From the UHGV virus genome UHGV-0330108: a DNA stretch of 42,810 nucleotides; one strand, given 5' to 3'. The notes beneath the pieces were generated by a model. It did not search any database. It was not told the DNA's origin and was given only the letters and a program-made list of their open reading frames with translations. Positions within the stretch are counted from its first letter, which is position 1. The number at the start of each line of letters is the position of its first letter. The position numbers and the translations under genes were made by a program. Of the stretch, positions 4,988 through 42,093 are shown piece by piece. The stretch comes from a virus.

Positions 4988-5009
4988 AGCCCCGAAAGGG
5001 GCTTTCTTA
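4988..5009 (+). terminator. hairpin / weak terminator between portal and head morphogenesis genes
   Basis: AGCCCC-GAAA-GGGGCT followed by TTCTTA. Confidence 0.35.
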
Positions 5010-5013
5010 TAGT

Positions 5014-6090
5014 ATGCTATTAACTTTAGCGCCACAGGGTTTATCTATGAGCTTACTTACATCACTAATCAGCCACCAGATATGGCTACAACGCACCGCT
5101 TCCGGCGAAGTGAAAGACCTCGCACCGTTTATTCAGGAGATGCGGGACGAAATCAAACGGCAGGTGTTGCTATTCGGTGACGACGACCGCAGCACCGCGC
5201 GACTGAATAAACTGTTACGTGACCTTGAAGAAGCACTGGCAGGACTTACAGGTGACTGGCAAACAAAGCTGACAGAAGACCTTAAGGAACTGGCGGCGTA
5301 TGAGGCTGAGTGGAACGTAAAGACGCTGACGGCTAACGTTAACGCTGAATTTGTTACGCCTACCGCTGAGCAGGTGTGGTCCGCTGCCGAGTTTCAACCC
5401 TTATCATTAAGCGACAAGCCTGTTGATTTCACGAAGCTGATGTCAGGTTGGGGTGAAACGGAAGTAGCACGTCTTGTAACAGGCGTTAAGATGGGCTTTG
5501 TTCAGGGCAAGACTACGCGGCAGATTGTTGCGGAAGTAGTCGGTAAAGGCGGGCTGGCTGACGTATCAGAGAAATACTCGGCTACGGTAATTCGCACCGC
5601 GCTATCACATGTGTCCAATGAAGCCCGTAACGAGACGTATCACCAGAACGACGACATCATCGAGAAGTACGAGTGGGTGTCAACGCTCGATAGCCGTACC
5701 AGTACGATTTGCAGAGCCAGGGACGGGATGACGTGGGAAATAGGTAAAGGCCCAATGCCGCCCGCCCATCCGAATTGCCGAAGCACCACTGCGCCTGTAA
5801 TCAGTTCCGAGTTCGACTTCCTCGATAAAGGTGCAAAACGGGCGGCTAAGGGTGCAGAAGGCGGTACTCAGGTAAGCGCGGACACCACCTATTACGAGTT
5901 CCTTAAACAACAACCGGCATGGTTTCAGGATGAAGCACTCGGGCCAACCCGCGGTAAGATTTTCCGTAACAGCGGTATATCACCGGAAGAGTTTCGCGTA
6001 ATATCTGTAGATGGTTTCGGGAACCCGCTCTCGCTTAAGCAGATGGCGGAACTCGATAAACGTGTTGCTGATTATCTGAAAGGGGATTAA
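5014..6090 (+). CDS. head morphogenesis protein (Mu F / SPP1 gp7-like minor head protein)
   Basis: Motif WVSTLDSRTSTICRARDGMTW...PPAHPNCRST matches the Mu F-family signature; follows the portal gene. Confidence 0.8.
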   Translation: MLLTLAPQGLSMSLLTSLISHQIWLQRTASGEVKDLAPFIQEMRDEIKRQVLLFGDDDRSTARLNKLLRDLEEALAGLTGDWQTKLTEDLKELAAYEAEWNVKTLTANVNAEFVTPTAEQVWSAAEFQPLSLSDKPVDFTKLMSGWGETEVARLVTGVKMGFVQGKTTRQIVAEVVGKGGLADVSEKYSATVIRTALSHVSNEARNETYHQNDDIIEKYEWVSTLDSRTSTICRARDGMTWEIGKGPMPPAHPNCRSTTAPVISSEFDFLDKGAKRAAKGAEGGTQVSADTTYYEFLKQQPAWFQDEALGPTRGKIFRNSGISPEEFRVISVDGFGNPLSLKQMAELDKRVADYLKGD

Positions 6091-6554: not shown

Positions 6555-6585
6555 AAGGCCCCTTACGGGGCCTTAGTTTTATTTG
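6555..6585. terminator. bidirectional rho-independent terminator
   Basis: AAGGCCCC-TTAC-GGGGCCTT flanked by an A-run upstream and AGTTTTATTT downstream, at a convergent gene junction. Confidence 0.55.
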
Positions 6586-6797
6586 AAGAATATCGCGAAT
6601 TTCTTGTAACCCGCTGGCTCGTTGCGCAGACCGTGTTCGTTAGCAAAACGTTGTATATTGTTAAAGTCATTTTCACCCATTCCGTCCGTATCGAACGTAA
6701 AGAAATTACGTTTGTTCCCGATAAGCACACGGCTTGTGATATCAATGCCGTAAAGTTCTTTGATGGCACGTACAACGTTTGCAGTAGCTTTGTTCAT
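6579..6797 (-). CDS. hypothetical protein (72 aa), isolated minus-strand gene
   Basis: ORF track frame 6579-6896; internal ATG at 6797 preceded by TAAGGAATTTGGAA; a TATAAT-containing 23-mer lies ~33 nt upstream. Confidence 0.5.
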   Translation of the reverse strand: MNKATANVVRAIKELYGIDITSRVLIGNKRNFFTFDTDGMGENDFNNIQRFANEHGLRNEPAGYKKFAIFFK

Positions 6798-6829: not shown

Positions 6830-6852
6830 TGAATAGTACCCTATTATATTGG
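6830..6852 (-). promoter_or_regulatory. promoter/operator cassette TGAATAGTACCCTATTATATTGG (minus-strand TATAAT plus palindrome GAATAG-N4-CTATTA)
   Basis: Perfect TATAAT on the minus strand overlapping a 16-bp palindrome; the identical 23-mer recurs at 16043-16065. Confidence 0.45.
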
Positions 6853-6927
6853 TGTCTGCAAACTATTTGTTTACGTATTCCAGTTATTCCACTCAATTGT
6901 AAATGTTGGAATAAACTATTCGAATAG

Positions 6928-6956
6928 TTGACTTTTCACTAAAAATGTGCTAAGCT
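6928..6956 (+). promoter_or_regulatory. putative sigma70-like promoter (TTGACT-N17-TAAGCT, TG-extended) next to palindrome AACTATTCGAATAGTT
   Basis: -35 is a good match, -10 is weak; palindromic half-sites overlap the -35. Confidence 0.3.
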
Positions 6957-13916: not shown

Positions 13917-13950
13917 AACTAAGGCCCCAAACGGGGCCTTTTTCTTACTC
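13917..13950. terminator. bidirectional rho-independent terminator cassette
   Basis: AAAACT-AAGGCCCC-AAAC-GGGGCCTT-TTTTCTTACTC; the minus-strand gene's stop codon lies in the T-tract. Near-identical copy at 25239-25277. Confidence 0.65.
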
Positions 13951-14188: not shown

Positions 14189-14659
14189 CTACTCATGGTT
14201 TTCATGGAAACCGTATTTACTCTCCGCGGCTTTACGCGCGGCAACCGCTAGACCAAAATCGTCGTAAAGCCCTAAATGTACTTGTTTGTAGTTAACTTTT
14301 ATAAACGCGCGCCACTTACCCGCGGCTTTGTGGAAACTTACACCTGTAGCCCCGGATTTATTTATCTTTCGCATAGTTTTATTTTTACTGTTCCCTGTAT
14401 TGTCGGTGGCGCGTAGATTTTCTATTCTATTGTCTAGCCTGTTATGGTTTATGTGGTCTATTTGAGTTTTCCTGTCTAAGTTGCATTTATTATAAAGACA
14501 CCATGCTATGCGGTGGACATACACCGTTTTACCACCCATACCGCAGCACAGATAGCCTCTTACACCAACCGTACCAACCTCAGCGCCAGTAGATATCCTG
14601 GTCACCTGCCCCGTCTCAGGGCAGTATTTAAATTGTTTTGAAACATCAATATATCTCAT
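14189..14659 (-). CDS. HNH homing endonuclease with AP2-like DNA-binding domain
   Basis: HNH core GYLCCGMGGKTVYVHRIAW...IDHINHNRLDNRIENL; C-terminal GVSFHKAAGKWRAFIKVNYKQVHLGLYDDFGLAVAARKAA resembles an AP2 domain. Confidence 0.8.
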   Translation of the reverse strand: MRYIDVSKQFKYCPETGQVTRISTGAEVGTVGVRGYLCCGMGGKTVYVHRIAWCLYNKCNLDRKTQIDHINHNRLDNRIENLRATDNTGNSKNKTMRKINKSGATGVSFHKAAGKWRAFIKVNYKQVHLGLYDDFGLAVAARKAAESKYGFHENHE

Positions 14660-15786
14660 CTTAGCATCTCCGGTGAGATTGAAAGCCTACCTACTTCCCC
14701 GAACTCTGAACTATAGGTTATGACGTTAGCGGACCTCTTAGACATCCACCCGCCGCGAGAAGCATATGCATCTTTCGCCGCGAGAGTGCGATGCTGCTCC
14801 ACTACCATATTCCTACTTTCTACAATCTTTTGGTGGTGGAGATGCCCGACATGCGCATAACTGTACTCGCTTTCGCCAAATGCTTTTCTGAACTTAGCGA
14901 TCATAATGGGTTCTACCACCTCAAACCGGCATTTATGTCCGTGTGTAAAGAACAGCGTCGTTTTGCCGTGTTGCACCATCTTATAAACATCCGGCGACGT
15001 ATCGACGAACACACGAGGCTCATTGTCGTATAGCGTACTGAACATCTCAGCCAACCAAATCATGCCCGATTCGTCGTGGTTCCCTTGCACGATAAGCAAG
15101 CGAACATTTTTATGCTTAACGAGGGCCATATCGACAACACGGCGGACCATACGAATCATGTAGCGCACAAGTTTCTGATAGCGCGTGTCCGCATCTAGAA
15201 CATGACCACTTGCAGGTGTAACGGCATCCAGACTATCGAAGTGTGCAAGGTCCCCCAGCAGATTAATAACTCCTGTTCCAGCGTCAGGCGCTTTCTGAAA
15301 CGCCGCGTCGAACCATCGAGAGAACAGGTCTTCCGCAATCTTCATATCCCAGTCGTCGCCGCTCTCGTCGGCCCAGGCCAGCATACCGAGATGAAAATCA
15401 GATACCGTGTAAAGATTGAGTAGCTTGTCGTCACGTTTGGCGCGAATGGCTTTAACAGGCGCAACAGGGGTAATCTCCGACTTCATACCTTCAATTACGG
15501 CTTTCATCAACTCGACCTGACGTTCGGCATCGGTGTCAGTCTTAACCCATTGCAGTTTAGTATTGCCGAACTCGTCAACAAGTGACGACGTCCCTTTAAT
15601 CTTGTAGCCGTCCGGTACAAGGTGACTAACGTCGCGCCCGTGGCCTACGCCTTTCTTAGCCAGCTTCGCTTTACGGATGCGAATTACGCGGTCTGAGATG
15701 CCGTATTTACGGGCGATGTCGATATTCTTCATACCGGCGTTCAATTCTTCCTGCAACTGCTCGTCGGTTATTTTCTTCCGGGCCAT
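14656..15786 (-). CDS. calcineurin-like metallophosphoesterase with N-terminal HTH domain
   Basis: Phosphoesterase motifs in order: SDFHLG, LLGDLAHFD, QGNHDE, FFTHGH, GHLHH; N-terminal NIDIARKYGISDRVIRIRKAK is HTH-like. Confidence 0.7.
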   Translation of the reverse strand: MARKKITDEQLQEELNAGMKNIDIARKYGISDRVIRIRKAKLAKKGVGHGRDVSHLVPDGYKIKGTSSLVDEFGNTKLQWVKTDTDAERQVELMKAVIEGMKSEITPVAPVKAIRAKRDDKLLNLYTVSDFHLGMLAWADESGDDWDMKIAEDLFSRWFDAAFQKAPDAGTGVINLLGDLAHFDSLDAVTPASGHVLDADTRYQKLVRYMIRMVRRVVDMALVKHKNVRLLIVQGNHDESGMIWLAEMFSTLYDNEPRVFVDTSPDVYKMVQHGKTTLFFTHGHKCRFEVVEPIMIAKFRKAFGESEYSYAHVGHLHHQKIVESRNMVVEQHRTLAAKDAYASRGGWMSKRSANVITYSSEFGEVGRLSISPEMLR

Positions 15787-16042: not shown

Positions 16043-16065
16043 TGAATAGTACCCTATTATATTGG
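16043..16065 (-). promoter_or_regulatory. promoter/operator cassette TGAATAGTACCCTATTATATTGG, identical to 6830-6852
   Basis: Exact 23-mer repeat with minus-strand TATAAT and the palindrome, directly upstream of the island's first gene. Confidence 0.45.
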
Positions 16066-16181
16066 GGCGCGCAAGTAGTGTGCTAGAATAGGTTTGCGCC
16101 TAGTGTCGCACACGAAAAGCGGGTGGTTCCCGTCTGGCGCATCAACCTTAACCCGTAACCTCTTAACCAAAGGATTAAAGA

Positions 16182-25238: not shown

Positions 25239-25277
25239 AAAAAAACTAAGGCCCCAAACGGGGCCTTTTCTTTACTC
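25239..25277. terminator. bidirectional rho-independent terminator cassette
   Basis: A9-CT-AAGGCCCC-AAAC-GGGGCCTT-TTCTTTACTC; core identical to 13917-13950; contains the stop codon of a minus-strand small gene. Confidence 0.65.
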
Positions 25278-27341: not shown

Positions 27342-27653
27342 TCAATTCCTTATATTGTTGGTGCAGGGATAACTATAATAGTTCGCTATTAGGTCGTCAA
27401 CCTCTTCTTTTGTTCCTACTACAAAAACATTTGCGTCACGTTTACGAAGCCGTTTGTGTTCCCGCAACTGATGGGCCTCCGGTTCCGTGTTTTCGTCTTT
27501 CTTCACCTCGACGAACCATATAACCCCTCCAGGAAGGGCTACCAGCAGGTCAGGCGCTCCGTTTCTACCCTCATAAGACAGCTTACGAACGAGGCCACCA
27601 ATGGCCTCGAATTGCTCTTTTGCGTATTTCTGTATTTTTCCTTCCGGGGTCAT
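27342..27653 (-). CDS. VRR-NUC domain nuclease
   Basis: ORF track frame 27342-27668; ATG at 27653; motif GAPDLLVALPGGVIWFVEVKKDE fits the VRR-NUC/PD-(D/E)XK signature. Confidence 0.7.
   Translation of the reverse strand: MTPEGKIQKYAKEQFEAIGGLVRKLSYEGRNGAPDLLVALPGGVIWFVEVKKDENTEPEAHQLREHKRLRKRDANVFVVGTKEEVDDLIANYYSYPCTNNIRN
27372..27400 (-). promoter_or_regulatory. sigma70-like promoter (minus: TTGACG-N17-TATAGT) with palindrome TAATAGTTCGCTATTA in the spacer
   Basis: Read on the reverse complement; lies inside the 3' end of the VRR-NUC gene, upstream of 27045-27338. Confidence 0.55.
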
Positions 27654-30949: not shown

Positions 30950-30978
30950 ACTATAATAGTTAACTATTCAGGTGTCAA
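30950..30978 (-). promoter_or_regulatory. sigma70-like promoter (minus: TTGACA-N17-TATAGT) with perfect palindrome GAATAGTTAACTATTA in the spacer
   Basis: Consensus -35, near-consensus -10, 17-bp spacer; ~45 nt upstream of the ATG at 30896. Confidence 0.6.
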
Positions 30979-32997: not shown

Positions 32998-33453
32998 TTA
33001 TTCTTCTTCGAAATACTTGTTCTTGATTGCCGTCAGGCGTTCCAGATATTCAACCAGGTCTTCGTCTTTAATCGCGGCAATCTTCATCTTCTTACCGGTG
33101 AACTCTTCCAGCAGTTCATCGGAATCATCGCACGCGGCATCGCTTGGGCCTTCGTTAATCGCATCGTCGATAGCCTGAATCTGGTCACGCAGAGACTGAT
33201 AATCGACCTCTTCTTCCGGCTCTGGCGTTGGCTCCTCTACTTTAGCTTTACGCGGCTTGCGTTTTGGCTTCTCTTCTTCTTCTGCCGGTTTAGTGTCAAC
33301 GAGGTCTTCACCTTCGACCGGGATTTCTTTTGTTGCAACATTAGGCGTGATTGTTGCAGTTTCAGCAACGACAACCTGTTTTGCGCTGTTCGCGGCAATC
33401 AGTTCGTGCGCAACTACGAAACGTTCCAGTAATACTAAGAATTTCTCTAACAT
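32998..33453 (-). CDS. hypothetical acidic protein (151 aa)
   Basis: ORF track; GAGGAGAG RBS; first gene downstream of the promoter at 33486-33515. Confidence 0.5.
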   Translation of the reverse strand: MLEKFLVLLERFVVAHELIAANSAKQVVVAETATITPNVATKEIPVEGEDLVDTKPAEEEEKPKRKPRKAKVEEPTPEPEEEVDYQSLRDQIQAIDDAINEGPSDAACDDSDELLEEFTGKKMKIAAIKDEDLVEYLERLTAIKNKYFEEE

Positions 33454-33485: not shown

Positions 33486-33515
33486 ACTATAATAGCGAAC
33501 TATTCATGTTGTCAA
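33486..33515 (-). promoter_or_regulatory. sigma70-like promoter (minus: TTGACA-N18-TATAGT) with palindrome GAATAGTTCGCTATTA
   Basis: Same architecture as 27372-27400 and 30950-30978; divergent from the XRE regulator gene. Confidence 0.55.
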
Positions 33516-33520
33516 TGGGC

Positions 33521-33549
33521 TTTTCTAAAATAATTAATATGGTACTATT
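33521..33549 (+). promoter_or_regulatory. putative promoter of the XRE regulator gene (-10 TACTAT within AATATGGTACTATTCA, weak -35)
   Basis: -10-like hexamer inside an operator-like half-palindrome, ~30 nt upstream of TAAGGAG. Confidence 0.35.
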
Positions 33550-33579: not shown

Positions 33580-33795
33580 ATGCAACCATCTGAACTAGGC
33601 ATCCGTGTAGAACAACGCCGCAAAGAACTTGGCATCTCCCAGCGCCGTCTGGCTGTCATGGCTGGCGTTTCCCAGGGCGCAATTAACCAGCTGGCACTTG
33701 GAGTAACTCAGGACGTCCGCCCGGCAACGCTGTTTAAACTGGCGGAAGTGCTTGAAGTAGACGCCAAGTGGCTGGCGTTCGGTGAAGGGGCTTAA
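33580..33795 (+). CDS. XRE-family HTH transcriptional regulator (Cro/CI-like, 71 aa)
   Basis: HTH segment ISQRRLAVMAGVSQGAINQLALG; TAAGGAG RBS; lone plus-strand gene with its own promoter and terminator. Confidence 0.75.
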   Translation: MQPSELGIRVEQRRKELGISQRRLAVMAGVSQGAINQLALGVTQDVRPATLFKLAEVLEVDAKWLAFGEGA

Positions 33796-33810
33796 CGCCC
33801 CTTTATTTTT
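33786..33810 (+). terminator. rho-independent terminator after the XRE regulator gene
   Basis: AGGGGC-TTAAC-GCCCCT followed by TTTATTTTT; the stop codon sits in the loop. Confidence 0.6.
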
Positions 33811-36141: not shown

Positions 36142-36375
36142 TTATTCCAGGTCTTCTAAAGTAGCGGTCATTCCGCGAACTTCAGCAACGGCGCTATATT
36201 TCCCGCCAACGTTTTTCACGACACCGGATTTAACCAGTACACGTAACGACGCTTCAATAATGGCTGAACTATAGTACTTAAAATAACTACGGCGCAAGTC
36301 GATAACGCTGCACGACCCTTTTTTACGTGTTAACGAAACGACCGCCGTAAATACGCGTGACTGGAACTCGGTCAT
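36142..36375 (-). CDS. hypothetical protein (77 aa) with C-terminal LEDLE
   Basis: ORF track; coupled to the upstream HTH gene. Confidence 0.45.
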   Translation of the reverse strand: MTEFQSRVFTAVVSLTRKKGSCSVIDLRRSYFKYYSSAIIEASLRVLVKSGVVKNVGGKYSAVAEVRGMTATLEDLE

Positions 36376-36542
36376 TTCACGTTCTCCTTAATCCACGCTT
36401 CCACTTTCTCCGGGTCGAACGTACCCGGCTGACGGCGACCCATAATACGAATACAGCAATCCGGGAACTTCCCACTCTTTAACCAGTTATTCAGCGTACG
36501 GCGGGTAACCCCGATACGCTCCGCTACCTCATTCTGTGTCAT
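36372..36542 (-). CDS. small HTH DNA-binding protein (56 aa from MTQNEV...)
   Basis: ORF track frame 36372-36575 starts at TTG; ATG at 36542 has GAGGGT upstream; HTH-like EVAERIGVTRRTLNNWLKSGKFP. Confidence 0.55.
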   Translation of the reverse strand: MTQNEVAERIGVTRRTLNNWLKSGKFPDCCIRIMGRRQPGTFDPEKVEAWIKENVK

Positions 36543-36603: not shown

Positions 36604-36983
36604 ACATAATTGCACCTATTGACATTATGAAAATCTTCGTTTAAGGTGCTTCTATATCTTAGTTACTTTGATTCCTGTTCACCTTGTAAAACCGCTTAAA
36701 ACGCAGCTGCGCGCAGCGCAAGCAAAGTGTTAAGCGCAAGTTTACTGAACATGAGAATTATCATAACTTTCCTCCCTAAGTATCTCCGGTTGCCCTGGGC
36801 AAGCTCTATTCCCATCGGCAGCATATCTCTTAAGTATCTGATTTTCTTAATGTGCCGTAGATTCACAACCGTAAAAATGTAACGATTATTGGGCAGGCTT
36901 AAGGCCTGCCCTTTAGTTACCAAGTAATAAGAATAAAGGCACAACCCTACCTGAAGAATCACAACGGCAACGTAACTATTCTC

Positions 36984-37012
36984 TTGCACATCCCAACATA
37001 ATAGGATACTAT
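36984..37012 (+). promoter_or_regulatory. putative promoter (TTGCAC-N17-TACTAT) with palindrome TAATAGGATACTATTC over the -10
   Basis: Same hexamers, spacing and operator placement as 38498-38526; ~35 nt upstream of the 37046 gene; coordinates approximate. Confidence 0.45.
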
Positions 37013-37045
37013 TCACTTATCGAAACAAGACAGAGGAGTGGGGGT

Positions 37046-38192: not shown

Positions 38193-38226
38193 TGTTCAAT
38201 AGTTTAAGATTTTACTGAGTGACTTA

Positions 38227-38256
38227 CGCTGCTACACAGCAGCGTATCATTTTTCT
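38227..38256 (+). terminator. putative rho-independent terminator
   Basis: CGCTGC-TACACA-GCAGCG followed by a T-rich tract. Confidence 0.4.
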
Positions 38257-38316
38257 CATTTTTGTTCTATTTCACCAAACGCAACAATCGAAGCGACTAT
38301 TGCAGGAGATGCAACA

Positions 38317-38490
38317 ATGATTACTAAAGAACAGGCTGAGCGACTAATCACGTTAATCGACACGATGATTGATGTAAAAATCGATTTAGCAACGGCAACA
38401 GAGGAATCCGCTACCTGGTCGCTTGAAGAAAGAGAAGCAGAAGCGGAACGGGAGTTACTGGCATTCATCGACTCCATAACACACCAATAA
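38317..38490 (+). CDS. hypothetical small acidic protein (57 aa)
   Basis: Not in the ORF track; ATG at 38317 with AGGAG 8 nt upstream; the track's minus ORF 38256-38477 is its antisense shadow. Confidence 0.4.
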   Translation: MITKEQAERLITLIDTMIDVKIDLATATEESATWSLEEREAEAERELLAFIDSITHQ

Positions 38491-38497
38491 AATTTAC

Positions 38498-38526
38498 TTG
38501 CACACTGATATAGAATAGGCTACTAT
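38498..38526 (+). promoter_or_regulatory. putative promoter (TTGCAC-N17-TACTAT) with palindrome GAATAGGCTACTATTC over the -10
   Basis: Same architecture as 36984-37012; ~30 nt upstream of GGGAGGAGAG and the ATG at 38558. Confidence 0.5.
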
Positions 38527-38557
38527 TCATTTACACAAATGGGAGGAGAGACAGAAG

Positions 38558-42042: not shown

Positions 42043-42064
42043 ATCTATTTTCTGTAATGACTAG

Positions 42065-42093
42065 TTGACTATTACCTACGACCCTACTATATT
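42065..42093 (+). promoter_or_regulatory. putative sigma70-like promoter (TTGACT-N17-TATATT)
   Basis: Good hexamers and spacing ~35 nt upstream of the 42127 gene. Confidence 0.5.

What the first reader, a model, noticed from the sequence alone, without database searches (positions are those of the whole stretch)
38498..38528. Second promoter class on the plus strand: TTGCAC-N17-TACTAT with the palindrome over the -10
The promoters in front of the 37046 and 38558 gene blocks have identical hexamers and spacing, and in both the GAATAG-N4-CTATTC palindrome covers the -10. This differs from the minus-strand class, where the palindrome is in the spacer, suggesting two regulatory classes using one operator.
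Basis: seen in the sequence. Interest (0 to 1): 0.5.

Follow-up and report, generated by a model that had tools for sequence, protein, structure and literature searches.

The report
Conserved phage promoter with built-in operator
Two small-gene blocks of this Kagunavirus-type E. coli phage start with the same weak host-type promoter whose -10 box sits inside a conserved 14-bp palindrome, most likely the binding site of the phage's own 434-Cro-like repressor; the motif was already listed in the literature, its function is untested, and it is a fairly ordinary arrangement.

Summary
The sequence facts hold. TTGCAC-N17-TACTAT occurs exactly twice (36984-37012, 38498-38526; none expected), and in both the palindrome AATAG-N4-CTATT covers the -10.

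The class is not plus-strand-specific. The same architecture heads two minus-strand units (6861-6833, 16074-16046) and, in extended -10 form, the plus-strand HTH gene at 33580. Three near-consensus minus-strand promoters carry the palindrome in the spacer.

The window is a Kagunavirus (Guernseyvirinae). Arms and hexamers are near-invariant in 38 related contigs, while the central bases and the flanking genes vary. Jerseyvirus keeps the palindrome. Cornellvirus has a symmetrically altered one (TATTA-N6-TAATA).

The best candidate reader is the 71-aa product of 33580-33795. It is a full-length homolog of phage 434 Cro, which binds 14-bp operators of the same geometry. The HTH_17 candidate (36372-36542) is variable, and it is replaced in phages that keep the palindrome.

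PHIRE-based genome papers already listed these sites as "phage RNAP promoters". No RNA polymerase gene is present.

Verdict: a real, conserved promoter-operator cassette and a new member of a known kind. Regulation and any difference between the classes remain untested.

The parts
38498..38503 (+). P38 -35-like hexamer TTGCAC
   Evidence: Invariant or near-invariant in 31 related loci.
38513..38528 (.). P38 operator: perfect 16-bp palindrome GAATAG-GCTA-CTATTC (14-bp core 38514-38527). Predicted to span about -20 to -5.
   Evidence: The arms are conserved and the second central base varies among orthologs.
38521..38526 (+). P38 -10 hexamer TACTAT, built from the last two central bases plus CTAT of the right arm
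38483..38557 (+). P38 cassette: A/T-rich upstream block, promoter, operator, about 25-nt leader and ribosome-binding site. Conserved as a unit while the flanking genes differ.
   Evidence: Alignment of 31 IMG/VR loci. Many different first downstream ORFs.
36984..37012 (+). P37 promoter TTGCAC-N17-TACTAT in front of the 37046 gene block
   Evidence: Lies between the hairpin at 36891-36911 and the gene block that ends at the terminator 38225-38246.
36999..37014 (.). P37 operator TAATAG-GATA-CTATTC (14-bp core 37000-37013)
6830..6861 (-). Same class on the minus strand: TTGCAG-N17-TACTAT with operator 6832-6845. Drives 6797-6579 (72 aa).
   Evidence: Terminator hairpin at 6555-6574.
16043..16074 (-). 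Same class on the minus strand: TTGCGC-N17-TACTAT with operator 16045-16058. Drives 16030-13945 (the first gene has a superinfection-immunity-type domain).
   Evidence: Terminator at 13921-13940.
33536..33549 (+). Class A-like site AATATGGTACTATT in front of the Cro-like gene. An extended -10 (TG at 33540-33541, TACTAT at 33543-33548) with no -35.
   Evidence: Conserved in Bas73 and the IMG/VR loci.
33486..33515 (-). Class B promoter TTGACA-N18-TATAGT with operator 33491-33504 in the spacer, divergent from the Cro-like gene
30950..30978 (-). Class B promoter TTGACA-N17-TATAGT with operator 30955-30968 in the spacer. Heads the ssDNA-binding and DNA polymerase genes.
27372..27400 (-). Class B promoter TTGACG-N17-TATAGT with operator 27377-27390 in the spacer
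33580..33795 (+). Candidate regulator: a 71-aa HTH_3 protein, a full-length homolog of phage 434 Cro, monocistronic with a terminator at 33785-33804
   Evidence: Pfam HTH_3 at 1e-12. PDB 434 Cro at 3.7e-7. 42% identity to 434 Cro. The recognition helix is invariant in Kagunavirus loci.
36372..36542 (-). Rival candidate: a 56-aa HTH_17 (excisionase/MerR-like) protein, the first gene of the helicase-primase operon. Its own promoter lacks the palindrome.
   Evidence: It is variable, and it is replaced in loci that keep the palindrome. Absent in Cornellvirus.
38225..38246 (+). Intrinsic terminator closing the P37 unit

Best explanation
P37 (36984-37012) and P38 (38498-38526) are two copies of a conserved promoter-operator-leader cassette. 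Host sigma-70 RNA polymerase most likely uses a weak -35 (TTGCAC) and a -10 (TACTAT) 17 bp apart. The -10 lies inside a 14-bp dyad, AATAG-N4-CTATT, predicted to span about -19 to -6. That dyad is most likely the operator of a dimeric phage-encoded helix-turn-helix protein, probably the 434-Cro-like product of 33580-33795. Bound protein would block -10 recognition and turn the unit down. The same operator sits in the spacer (about -25 to -12) of three near-consensus promoters for the replication and recombination genes, and next to the regulator's own promoter. This gives a small genome-wide regulon with autoregulation. Shown here: the sequences, their non-random occurrence, their conservation pattern, and the protein homology. 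Inferred: promoter activity, the transcription start sites, protein binding, and the direction of the effect (repression).
For: (1) The exact hexamers and palindrome are far above chance. (2) The units are bracketed by terminators. The hairpin at 36891-36911 precedes P37, and the P37 block ends at the terminator 38225-38246. The minus-strand copies end at the hairpins 6555-6574 and 13921-13940. (3) In 68 unique class A and 95 unique class B sites from relatives fetched through the helicase-primase gene, the arms and hexamers are near-invariant. The central 4 bp take 19 forms in class B, and the second central base is free in class A. (4) The left arm is conserved although no polymerase element needs it. 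The motif flips orientation and changes register between classes and genera: 4-5, 7 or 10 nt from the -35. (5) Jerseyvirus S100 (helicase 60% identical) keeps TAATAG-N4-CTATTA. Cornellvirus VSiA and TS6 have none of these but carry 3 perfect TATTA-N6-TAATA at orthologous promoters, against 0.03-0.05 expected. This is a mirror-symmetric change. (6) Jerseyvirus and Cornellvirus both infect Salmonella, so the specificity is phage-encoded. (7) The product of 33580-33795 matches 434 Cro end to end. 434 operators read in phage Sf101 are 14-bp dyads with a free centre, and OR2 lies inside the 17-nt spacer of PR, like class B here. Q21 and Q32 (434 repressor Q17 and Q28) are invariant in all genera. 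(8) The gene is flanked by two sites, present in all three genera, and its recognition helix is invariant in Kagunavirus.
Against: There are no functional data of any kind and no mapped transcription starts. The class A hexamers match the consensus at only 7 of 12 positions and are missed by the sigma-70 scan. One Jerseyvirus ortholog has CACTAT. Every class A site also carries a better -10-like hexamer 11 bp upstream (TATAAT, CATAAT or TAGAAT), but it has no -35 partner. Covariation of the recognition helix is ambiguous. Kagunavirus has SQGAINQ and Jerseyvirus SQSLITH, yet they share the core palindrome. Jerseyvirus and Cornellvirus have similar helices (SQSLITH and TQSAISH) but different palindromes. 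In Cornellvirus the class B orthologs have largely lost their symmetry. Weak palindrome-like sites also overlap the -35 of the two promoters heading the late operons (6923, 42060). That is awkward for a simple model of early-gene shut-off.
Confidence: 0.55

Rival explanations
1. The palindrome is an operator, but it is read by another phage protein: the 56-aa HTH_17 product of 36372-36542, its 77-aa neighbour (36142-36375), or the NinH-like product of 1045-1281.
For: HTH_17 is 88% identical between Kagunavirus and Jerseyvirus, which share the palindrome. It is absent, together with the 77-aa ORF, from Cornellvirus, which lacks AATAG-N4-CTATT. It is made from a palindrome-free promoter.
Against: Within Kagunavirus, HTH_17 varies between 71% and 100% identity, including in its recognition helix (RRTLNNW, RQTINNW, PMTLNRW). 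In L011 and L025 it is replaced by an unrelated 47-aa plus 149-aa module while the P37 and P38 palindromes stay intact. The 77-aa ORF is missing from most loci. The NinH-like protein is about equally diverged in Jerseyvirus and Cornellvirus (64-69% identity), so it does not track the operator switch, and its Pfam hit is below threshold. Pfam found no replacement HTH in Cornellvirus.
Confidence: 0.13
2. No dedicated regulator exists. The cassettes are copies of one ancestral promoter-leader unit, kept similar by descent and recombination. The dyad is a by-product of A/T-rich -10-like sequence on both strands.
For: Both arms resemble -10 hexamers (TACTAT, TATTAT, TAATAT). The cassettes sit at mosaic junctions, and the same leader occurs at different genomic positions in different phages.
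Against: In class B both arms lie in the spacer, where the polymerase needs no specific sequence, yet they are near-invariant while the 4 central bases vary freely. The dyad persists across genera with 60% protein identity. In Cornellvirus both arms changed together. There are no -35 partners for a divergent promoter.
Confidence: 0.12
3. A host DNA-binding protein, not a phage protein, recognises the palindrome.
For: The motif lies in host-type promoters. One site (30955, AATAGTTAACTATT) and the site at 42060 (ACTAGTTGACTATT) loosely resemble the TrpR operator. This resemblance is recalled from memory and was not tested.
Against: Jerseyvirus and Cornellvirus share the host genus Salmonella but use different dyads. 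The central bases that matter for TrpR are not conserved.
Confidence: 0.07
4. The motif is a promoter for a phage-encoded RNA polymerase or sigma factor, as labelled in the fBC-Eco01 genome paper.
For: PHIRE picks the motif as the dominant repeated 20-mer. PMC9825357 calls the 7 sites phage-RNAP promoters.
Against: No RNA polymerase domain occurs in the ten ORFs scanned (nine of the ten largest plus the 376-aa ORF at 14656-15786), and none is annotated in the Bas73 genome. The motif is palindromic. It flips orientation and shifts register relative to the transcribed gene. Class B sites are near-perfect sigma-70 promoters.
Confidence: 0.03

Closest known systems
Phage 434 Cro/repressor with the OR operators overlapping PR
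   Same: A 71-aa Cro-type HTH protein that is 42% identical to 434 Cro. 14-bp dyad operators with conserved outer 4-5 bp and a free centre. The half-sites share A1, A4 and G5 (ACAAG versus AATAG). One operator sits inside a 17-nt promoter spacer, like OR2 in PR as read in Sf101 and like class B here. Another overlaps the -10/start region.
   Different: There is no cI partner, no integrase and no tandem tripartite operator. Single operators are scattered over 8-11 promoters around a virulent-type genome. Base pairs 2-3 of the half-site differ. Binding is untested.
PHIRE-predicted 'phage promoters' of Kagunavirus fBC-Eco01 (PMC9825357) and VB_EcoS-Golestan (PMC7203180)
   Same: The same motif and orthologous sites. 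The Golestan paper lists TAATAGGATACTATTCACTT and GAATAGGCTACTATTCATTT. The fBC-Eco01 consensus is tgAATAGTa-ccTATTat-T.
   Different: Those papers list 20-mers only. They do not note the dyad, the hexamers, the two architectures or a regulator, and one attributes the sites to a phage RNA polymerase that the genomes do not encode.
Cro-mediated turn-down of early promoters in lambdoid phages
   Same: A small Cro-type protein made from an early unit would occupy operators in core promoters, lower early transcription and regulate its own gene.
   Different: Here the logic would operate without a lysogeny switch and over many dispersed promoters. It is inferred only.
MerR-type and Q/AlpA-type elements located between the -35 and -10
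   Same: A DNA-binding site inside the promoter spacer (class B). The HTH_17 candidate belongs to the MerR/excisionase-like group.
   Different: The spacers are 17-18 bp, not 19-20. The 56-aa protein lacks a MerR dimerisation helix. AlpA has residues numbered up to 142, binds a single asymmetric 6-bp element and needs a sigma-dependent pause (PMC9371919). The site here is a dyad.

Membership tests
Sigma-70-type bacterial promoter | -35 and -10 hexamers resembling TTGACA and TATAAT, 16-18 bp apart | tested here: inconclusive
   TTGCAC-N17-TACTAT matches 7 of 12 positions (TTG, and A2 and T6 of the -10, are present) and falls below the scan's threshold. The hexamers are near-invariant in relatives. 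Class B sites score 10-11 of 12.
Sigma-70-type bacterial promoter | Location at the head of a transcription unit | tested here: met
   P37 follows the hairpin at 36891-36911 and its block ends at the terminator 38225-38246. The ATG codons lie 31-33 nt downstream of the -10.
Sigma-70-type bacterial promoter | Measured transcription start or promoter activity | not testable with these tools
   No start-site mapping was found. The only Kagunavirus RNA-seq study is too coarse: latent period 30 min, phage reads below 9%.
434-type Cro/operator system | Cro/CI-type HTH protein encoded by the phage | tested here: met
   33580-33795 matches HTH_3 at 1e-12 and 434 Cro at 3.7e-7 over residues 6-68.
434-type Cro/operator system | 14-bp dyad operator with conserved outer bases and a variable centre | tested here: met
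   AATAG-N4-CTATT has invariant arms and a free centre. The geometry is the same as ACAAG-N4-NTTGT in Sf101/434.
434-type Cro/operator system | Operators overlapping core promoter elements | tested here: met
   The operator lies over the -10 in class A and in the spacer in class B.
434-type Cro/operator system | Three tandem operators between divergent cI and cro genes (an immunity region) | tested here: not met
   There is one operator per promoter. The gene divergent from 33580 (32998-33453) has no Pfam HTH. No repressor or integrase is annotated in the Bas73 genome.
434-type Cro/operator system | Specific binding of the protein to the dyad | not testable with these tools
   Needs gel-shift or footprinting assays. 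Only phyletic and covariation arguments are available.
Phage-RNA-polymerase promoter (PHIRE label) | Phage-encoded RNA polymerase or sigma factor | tested here: not met
   No such domain occurs in the ten ORFs scanned, and none is annotated in the Bas73 genome.
Phage-RNA-polymerase promoter (PHIRE label) | Fixed orientation and distance relative to the transcribed gene | tested here: not met
   The motif is a dyad, is inverted between classes A and B, and occupies three or four registers.
MerR-type spacer operator | Over-long (19-20 bp) spacer and a MerR protein with a coiled-coil dimerisation helix | tested here: not met
   The spacers are 17-18 bp. The HTH_17 protein has 56 aa, and its MerR_1 hit is below threshold.

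The most novel reading that the evidence does not exclude
A strictly virulent phage subfamily (Guernseyvirinae) may run most of its non-structural transcription, and possibly also its late transcription, through one orphan 434-Cro-like protein. That protein would act on about 8-11 single operators placed in three or four registers within host-type promoters. The roughly 75-bp promoter-operator-leader cassette would double as the portable recombination joint through which accessory genes are swapped between phages.
Probability: 0.3. Interest if true: 0.55.

Novelty: new member of a known kind. Interest (0 to 1): 0.35.

Why it matters
Kagunavirus and Jerseyvirus phages are widely isolated for therapy and food biocontrol, yet their gene regulation is uncharacterised. 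If the model holds, it has three uses. It gives a testable regulon: one small protein and a defined 14-bp site. It corrects the published label of these sites as phage-RNA-polymerase promoters. It also points to the P38 cassette as a natural, regulated insertion point for engineering payload genes, because nature already swaps genes there. Conceptually it would show a Cro-type switch component retained and spread across a genome that has no lysogeny module. That is interesting but not surprising.

Tried and rejected
(1) I scanned IMG/VR for the fully symmetric TGAATAG-N4-CTATTCA. It returned 94 scattered single hits in unrelated contigs, which looks like chance level (not formally tested) and is uninformative.

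(2) The Kagunavirus RNA-seq paper (PMC12645636) has time points beyond the 30-min latent period and phage reads below 9%. It cannot assign temporal classes to the promoters.

(3) Literature searches for Jerseyvirus or Guernseyvirinae promoter and transcription work found nothing beyond the PHIRE lists.

(4) The Q/AlpA-type antiterminator idea for the HTH_17 protein was rejected. AlpA is far larger and binds an asymmetric 6-bp element as a single molecule.

(5) MerR-type activation was rejected because the spacers are 17-18 bp.

(6) Divergent or bidirectional promoter readings of the dyad were rejected. No -35 partner lies at 16-18 bp on the opposite strand.

(7) The alternative -10 hexamer 11 bp upstream (TATAAT, CATAAT or TAGAAT) has no -35 or TG partner.

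(8) The pentamer AATAG/CTATT alone is not enriched (70 observed versus 74 expected). Only the dyad is.

(9) Rfam and tRNA scans found nothing.

(10) HTH_17 has no homolog of solved structure by sequence. Structure prediction was not run, because it would not decide who binds the site.

Full report
**What the window is.** The 42.8-kb window is about 92% identical over alignable parts to Escherichia phages ZCEC5, K1ind1 and GertrudWoker_Bas73. These are Kagunavirus-type siphophages of the subfamily Guernseyvirinae. The annotated Bas73 genome (L001) gives the layout:
- Structural genes lie on the plus strand.
- Replication and recombination genes lie on the minus strand (about 25-36 kb here).
- Small genes of unknown function, followed by lysis genes, lie on the plus strand from about 37 kb.
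- Two short minus-strand islands sit inside the structural region.

**Checking the observation.**
- P38: TTGCAC at 38498-38503, 17 nt, TACTAT at 38521-38526, and the perfect 16-bp palindrome GAATAG-GCTA-CTATTC at 38513-38528.
- P37: TTGCAC at 36984-36989, 17 nt, TACTAT at 37007-37012, and TAATAG-GATA-CTATTC at 36999-37014.
- The exact TTGCAC-N17-TACTAT pattern occurs twice, with none in 100 shuffles.
- AATAG-N4-CTATT occurs 7 times perfectly, against about 0.03 expected, and 11 times with at most one mismatch, against 0.7-1.0 expected.
- The pentamer alone is not enriched (70 observed versus 74 expected), so the dyad is what is non-random.
- The -10 consists of the last two central bases plus CTAT of the right arm.

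So the sequence statement is correct. The strand statement is not. TTGC-N19-TACTATTCA matches four times, two per strand. The sites 6861-6833 (TTGCAG) and 16074-16046 (TTGCGC) on the minus strand have the same architecture. A fifth, plus-strand copy at 33536-33549 (AATATGGTACTATT) precedes the HTH gene at 33580. There the one mismatch in the left arm creates a TG-N-TACTAT extended -10, and no -35 is present.

**The promoter classes.**
- Class A has the dyad over the -10, predicted at about -19 to -6. It has five members: 6832(-), 16045(-), 33536(+), 37000(+) and 38514(+).
- Class B has the dyad in the spacer, at about -25 to -12. It has three members, all on the minus strand: 27377, 30955 and 33491. 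Their promoters read TTGAC(A/G)-N17/18-TATAGT. These are the three best sigma-70 matches in the window, at 10-11 of 12 positions.
- Class A hexamers match only 7 of 12 positions and fall below the scan's threshold.
- Read in the direction of transcription, class B is the reverse complement of class A (TGAATAG-N4-CTATTATA). The motif is therefore flipped as well as shifted.
- Two further one-mismatch dyads overlap the -35 (TTGACT) of the plus-strand promoters at 6928 and 42065, which head the late operons. This may be a third register.
- The units are bracketed by terminators. The P37 block ends at 38225-38246, the minus-strand class A units end at 6555-6574 and 13921-13940, and the HTH gene ends at 33785-33804.

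**Conservation.** I fetched 38 IMG/VR loci through the helicase-primase protein, so the sample is unbiased with respect to the promoters.
- The P38 cassette is roughly CACCAATAAAATTTAC-TTGCAC-(variable 6-7 nt)-GATAGAATAGGCTACTATTCATTTACACAAACGAGAGGAGAGACAGAAG-ATG.
- It is almost invariant, while the sequences upstream and the first downstream gene differ completely between phages.
- Over 68 unique class A and 95 unique class B sites, the -35, the arms and the -10 carry near-maximal information.
- The central four bases take 19 forms in class B. In class A only the TA needed for the -10 is fixed.
- The left arm has no role in polymerase recognition in either class, yet it is conserved. This is the main argument that a separate factor reads the dyad.

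**Other genera.**
- Jerseyvirus S100 (helicase-primase 60% identical) keeps the dyad as TAATAG-N4-CTATTA. It has both architectures and a further register, TTGCAT-N17-TATTAT.
- Cornellvirus VSiA and the related TS6 have no AATAG-N4-CTATT site at all, even allowing one mismatch.
- Instead they carry three perfect TATTA-N6-TAATA dyads at promoters orthologous to class A sites, against 0.03-0.05 expected.
- Relative to Jerseyvirus this is the same change in both arms (TAATAG to TATTAG, mirrored). That is what a change in specificity of a dimeric protein predicts.
- Jerseyvirus and Cornellvirus both infect Salmonella, so a host protein is an unlikely reader.

**Who reads it.**
- 33580-33795 encodes a 71-aa HTH_3 protein. 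It matches phage 434 Cro over its whole length (E = 3.7e-7) and is 42% identical to it.
- In phage Sf101, whose Cro is identical to 434 Cro, the operator region reads TTGACA-a-[ACAAGATACATTGT]-at-GAAAAT-[ACAAGAAAGTTTGT].
- These are 14-bp dyads with a free centre. One sits inside a 17-nt spacer, like class B here, and one covers the start region.
- The half-sites ACAAG and AATAG share positions 1, 4 and 5.
- The residues equivalent to 434 repressor Q17 and Q28 (Q28 contacts A1, from established knowledge of the 434 complexes) are invariant in all three genera.
- The gene lies between a class B site and its own class A-like site. It is present in every genome examined, and its recognition helix (GVSQGAINQLALG) is invariant across Kagunavirus loci.

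The rival candidates fare worse.
- The HTH_17 protein (36372-36542) is 88% identical between Kagunavirus and Jerseyvirus and absent from Cornellvirus. At first this looked like support.
- Within Kagunavirus, however, it varies between 71% and 100% identity, including in its recognition helix.
- In L011 and L025 it is replaced by an unrelated 47-aa plus 149-aa module, although the P37 and P38 dyads are intact there.
- The NinH-like candidate (1045-1281) is below the Pfam threshold and does not track the operator switch.

There is one weakness. Kagunavirus and Jerseyvirus HTH_3 proteins differ in several helix-3 residues yet share the core dyad, whereas Jerseyvirus and Cornellvirus helices are more alike yet the dyads differ. 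434 Cro and 434 repressor also share operators despite different helices, so this does not refute the assignment. It does keep the assignment at moderate confidence.

**What is already known.** Two genome reports found this motif with PHIRE.
- VB_EcoS-Golestan lists seven 20-mers, including the orthologs of P37 and P38 (PMC7203180, Table S4).
- fBC-Eco01 gives the consensus tgAATAGTa-ccTATTat-T and ascribes seven sites to a phage-encoded RNA polymerase (PMC9825357).
- None of the ten ORFs scanned has a polymerase domain, and none is annotated in Bas73.
- The flipping and shifting of a dyad is also incompatible with a polymerase promoter.
- Neither paper notes the dyad, the hexamers, the classes or a regulator.

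**Mechanism proposed.** Host polymerase transcribes all these units. As the Cro-like protein accumulates, a dimer would occupy the dyads and occlude the -10 (class A) or the spacer/-10 edge (class B). This would turn down the accessory and replication genes and the regulator's own gene.
- Differences between the classes would come mainly from promoter strength: near-consensus in class B, weak in class A.
- P38 may be helped by a conserved A/T-rich block upstream of its -35.
- By analogy with 434, operator affinity might also depend on the central bases. This last point is speculation.
- Both positions predict repression, so two regulatory classes are not demonstrated.

**Verdict.** It is best read as a Cro-type operator embedded in host-type promoters. 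That makes it a new member of a known kind, partly anticipated in the literature, and functionally untested.

Noticed in passing
window 38483-38557; L002-L039: The P38 promoter-leader cassette is a mosaic junction. Among 31 related contigs the cassette is near-identical, but it is followed by many different first genes and preceded by several different sequences. This suggests it acts as a recombination joint for accessory-gene exchange.
   Followed up: partly
window 6579-6797 (-) versus the P37 position in L006, L009, L012, L014, L025, L029, L030: The 72-aa gene (MNKATANV...) that sits behind the minus-strand class A promoter at 6832 here is found, with the same leader, directly behind the P37 promoter in other phages. 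A gene has moved between two copies of the cassette.
   Followed up: partly
window 6915-6936 and 42060-42073: One-mismatch dyads (AATAGTTGACTTTT, ACTAGTTGACTATT) overlap the -35 TTGACT of the two plus-strand promoters heading the late operons. At 6915-6930 there is also a perfect 16-bp palindrome, AACTATTCGAATAGTT, with the half-sites in the opposite order. In Jerseyvirus the mismatch at the 42060 ortholog is in the other arm.
   Followed up: partly
window 33536-33549: The promoter of the Cro-like gene has no -35. The single mismatch in its left arm (G to T) creates an extended -10, TG-N-TACTAT.
   Followed up: no
L011 9355-9940; L025 9358-9943: In some Kagunavirus contigs the HTH_17 plus 77-aa module upstream of the helicase-primase gene is replaced by a 47-aa cysteine-rich (zinc-ribbon-like) ORF and a 149-aa ORF.
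   Followed up: partly
window 36696-37016 (-): A 106-aa ORF, annotated as a hypothetical protein in Bas73, starts inside the P37 operator and runs through the hairpin at 36891-36911. It has no Pfam hit, and the region is not conserved among relatives. It is probably not a gene.
   Followed up: partly
window 5008-5021: TATAGTATGCTATT, listed as a PHIRE promoter in the Golestan paper, contains the ATG of the head-morphogenesis gene (5014) and directly follows the terminator at 4988-5003. It is conserved in Jerseyvirus and is unlikely to be a promoter for that gene.
   Followed up: no
window 38225-38316 and 38317-38490: The DUF7438 gene at 38317 follows a terminator and has no recognisable promoter of its own. 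In many relatives the gene is absent and its leader is fused directly to the P38 cassette.
   Followed up: no
window 6555-6574, 13921-13940, 25248-25267: Three near-identical hairpins, AAGGCCCC-N4-GGGGCCTT, sit at points where the coding strand switches and score as terminators on both strands.
   Followed up: no
L041 37000-37300: Cornellvirus VSiA has a 300-bp intergenic region after its helicase-primase gene that is full of G-rich repeats (GGGGGAGA-type). The helicase-primase gene is inverted relative to Kagunavirus and Jerseyvirus. This may be an origin region.
   Followed up: no
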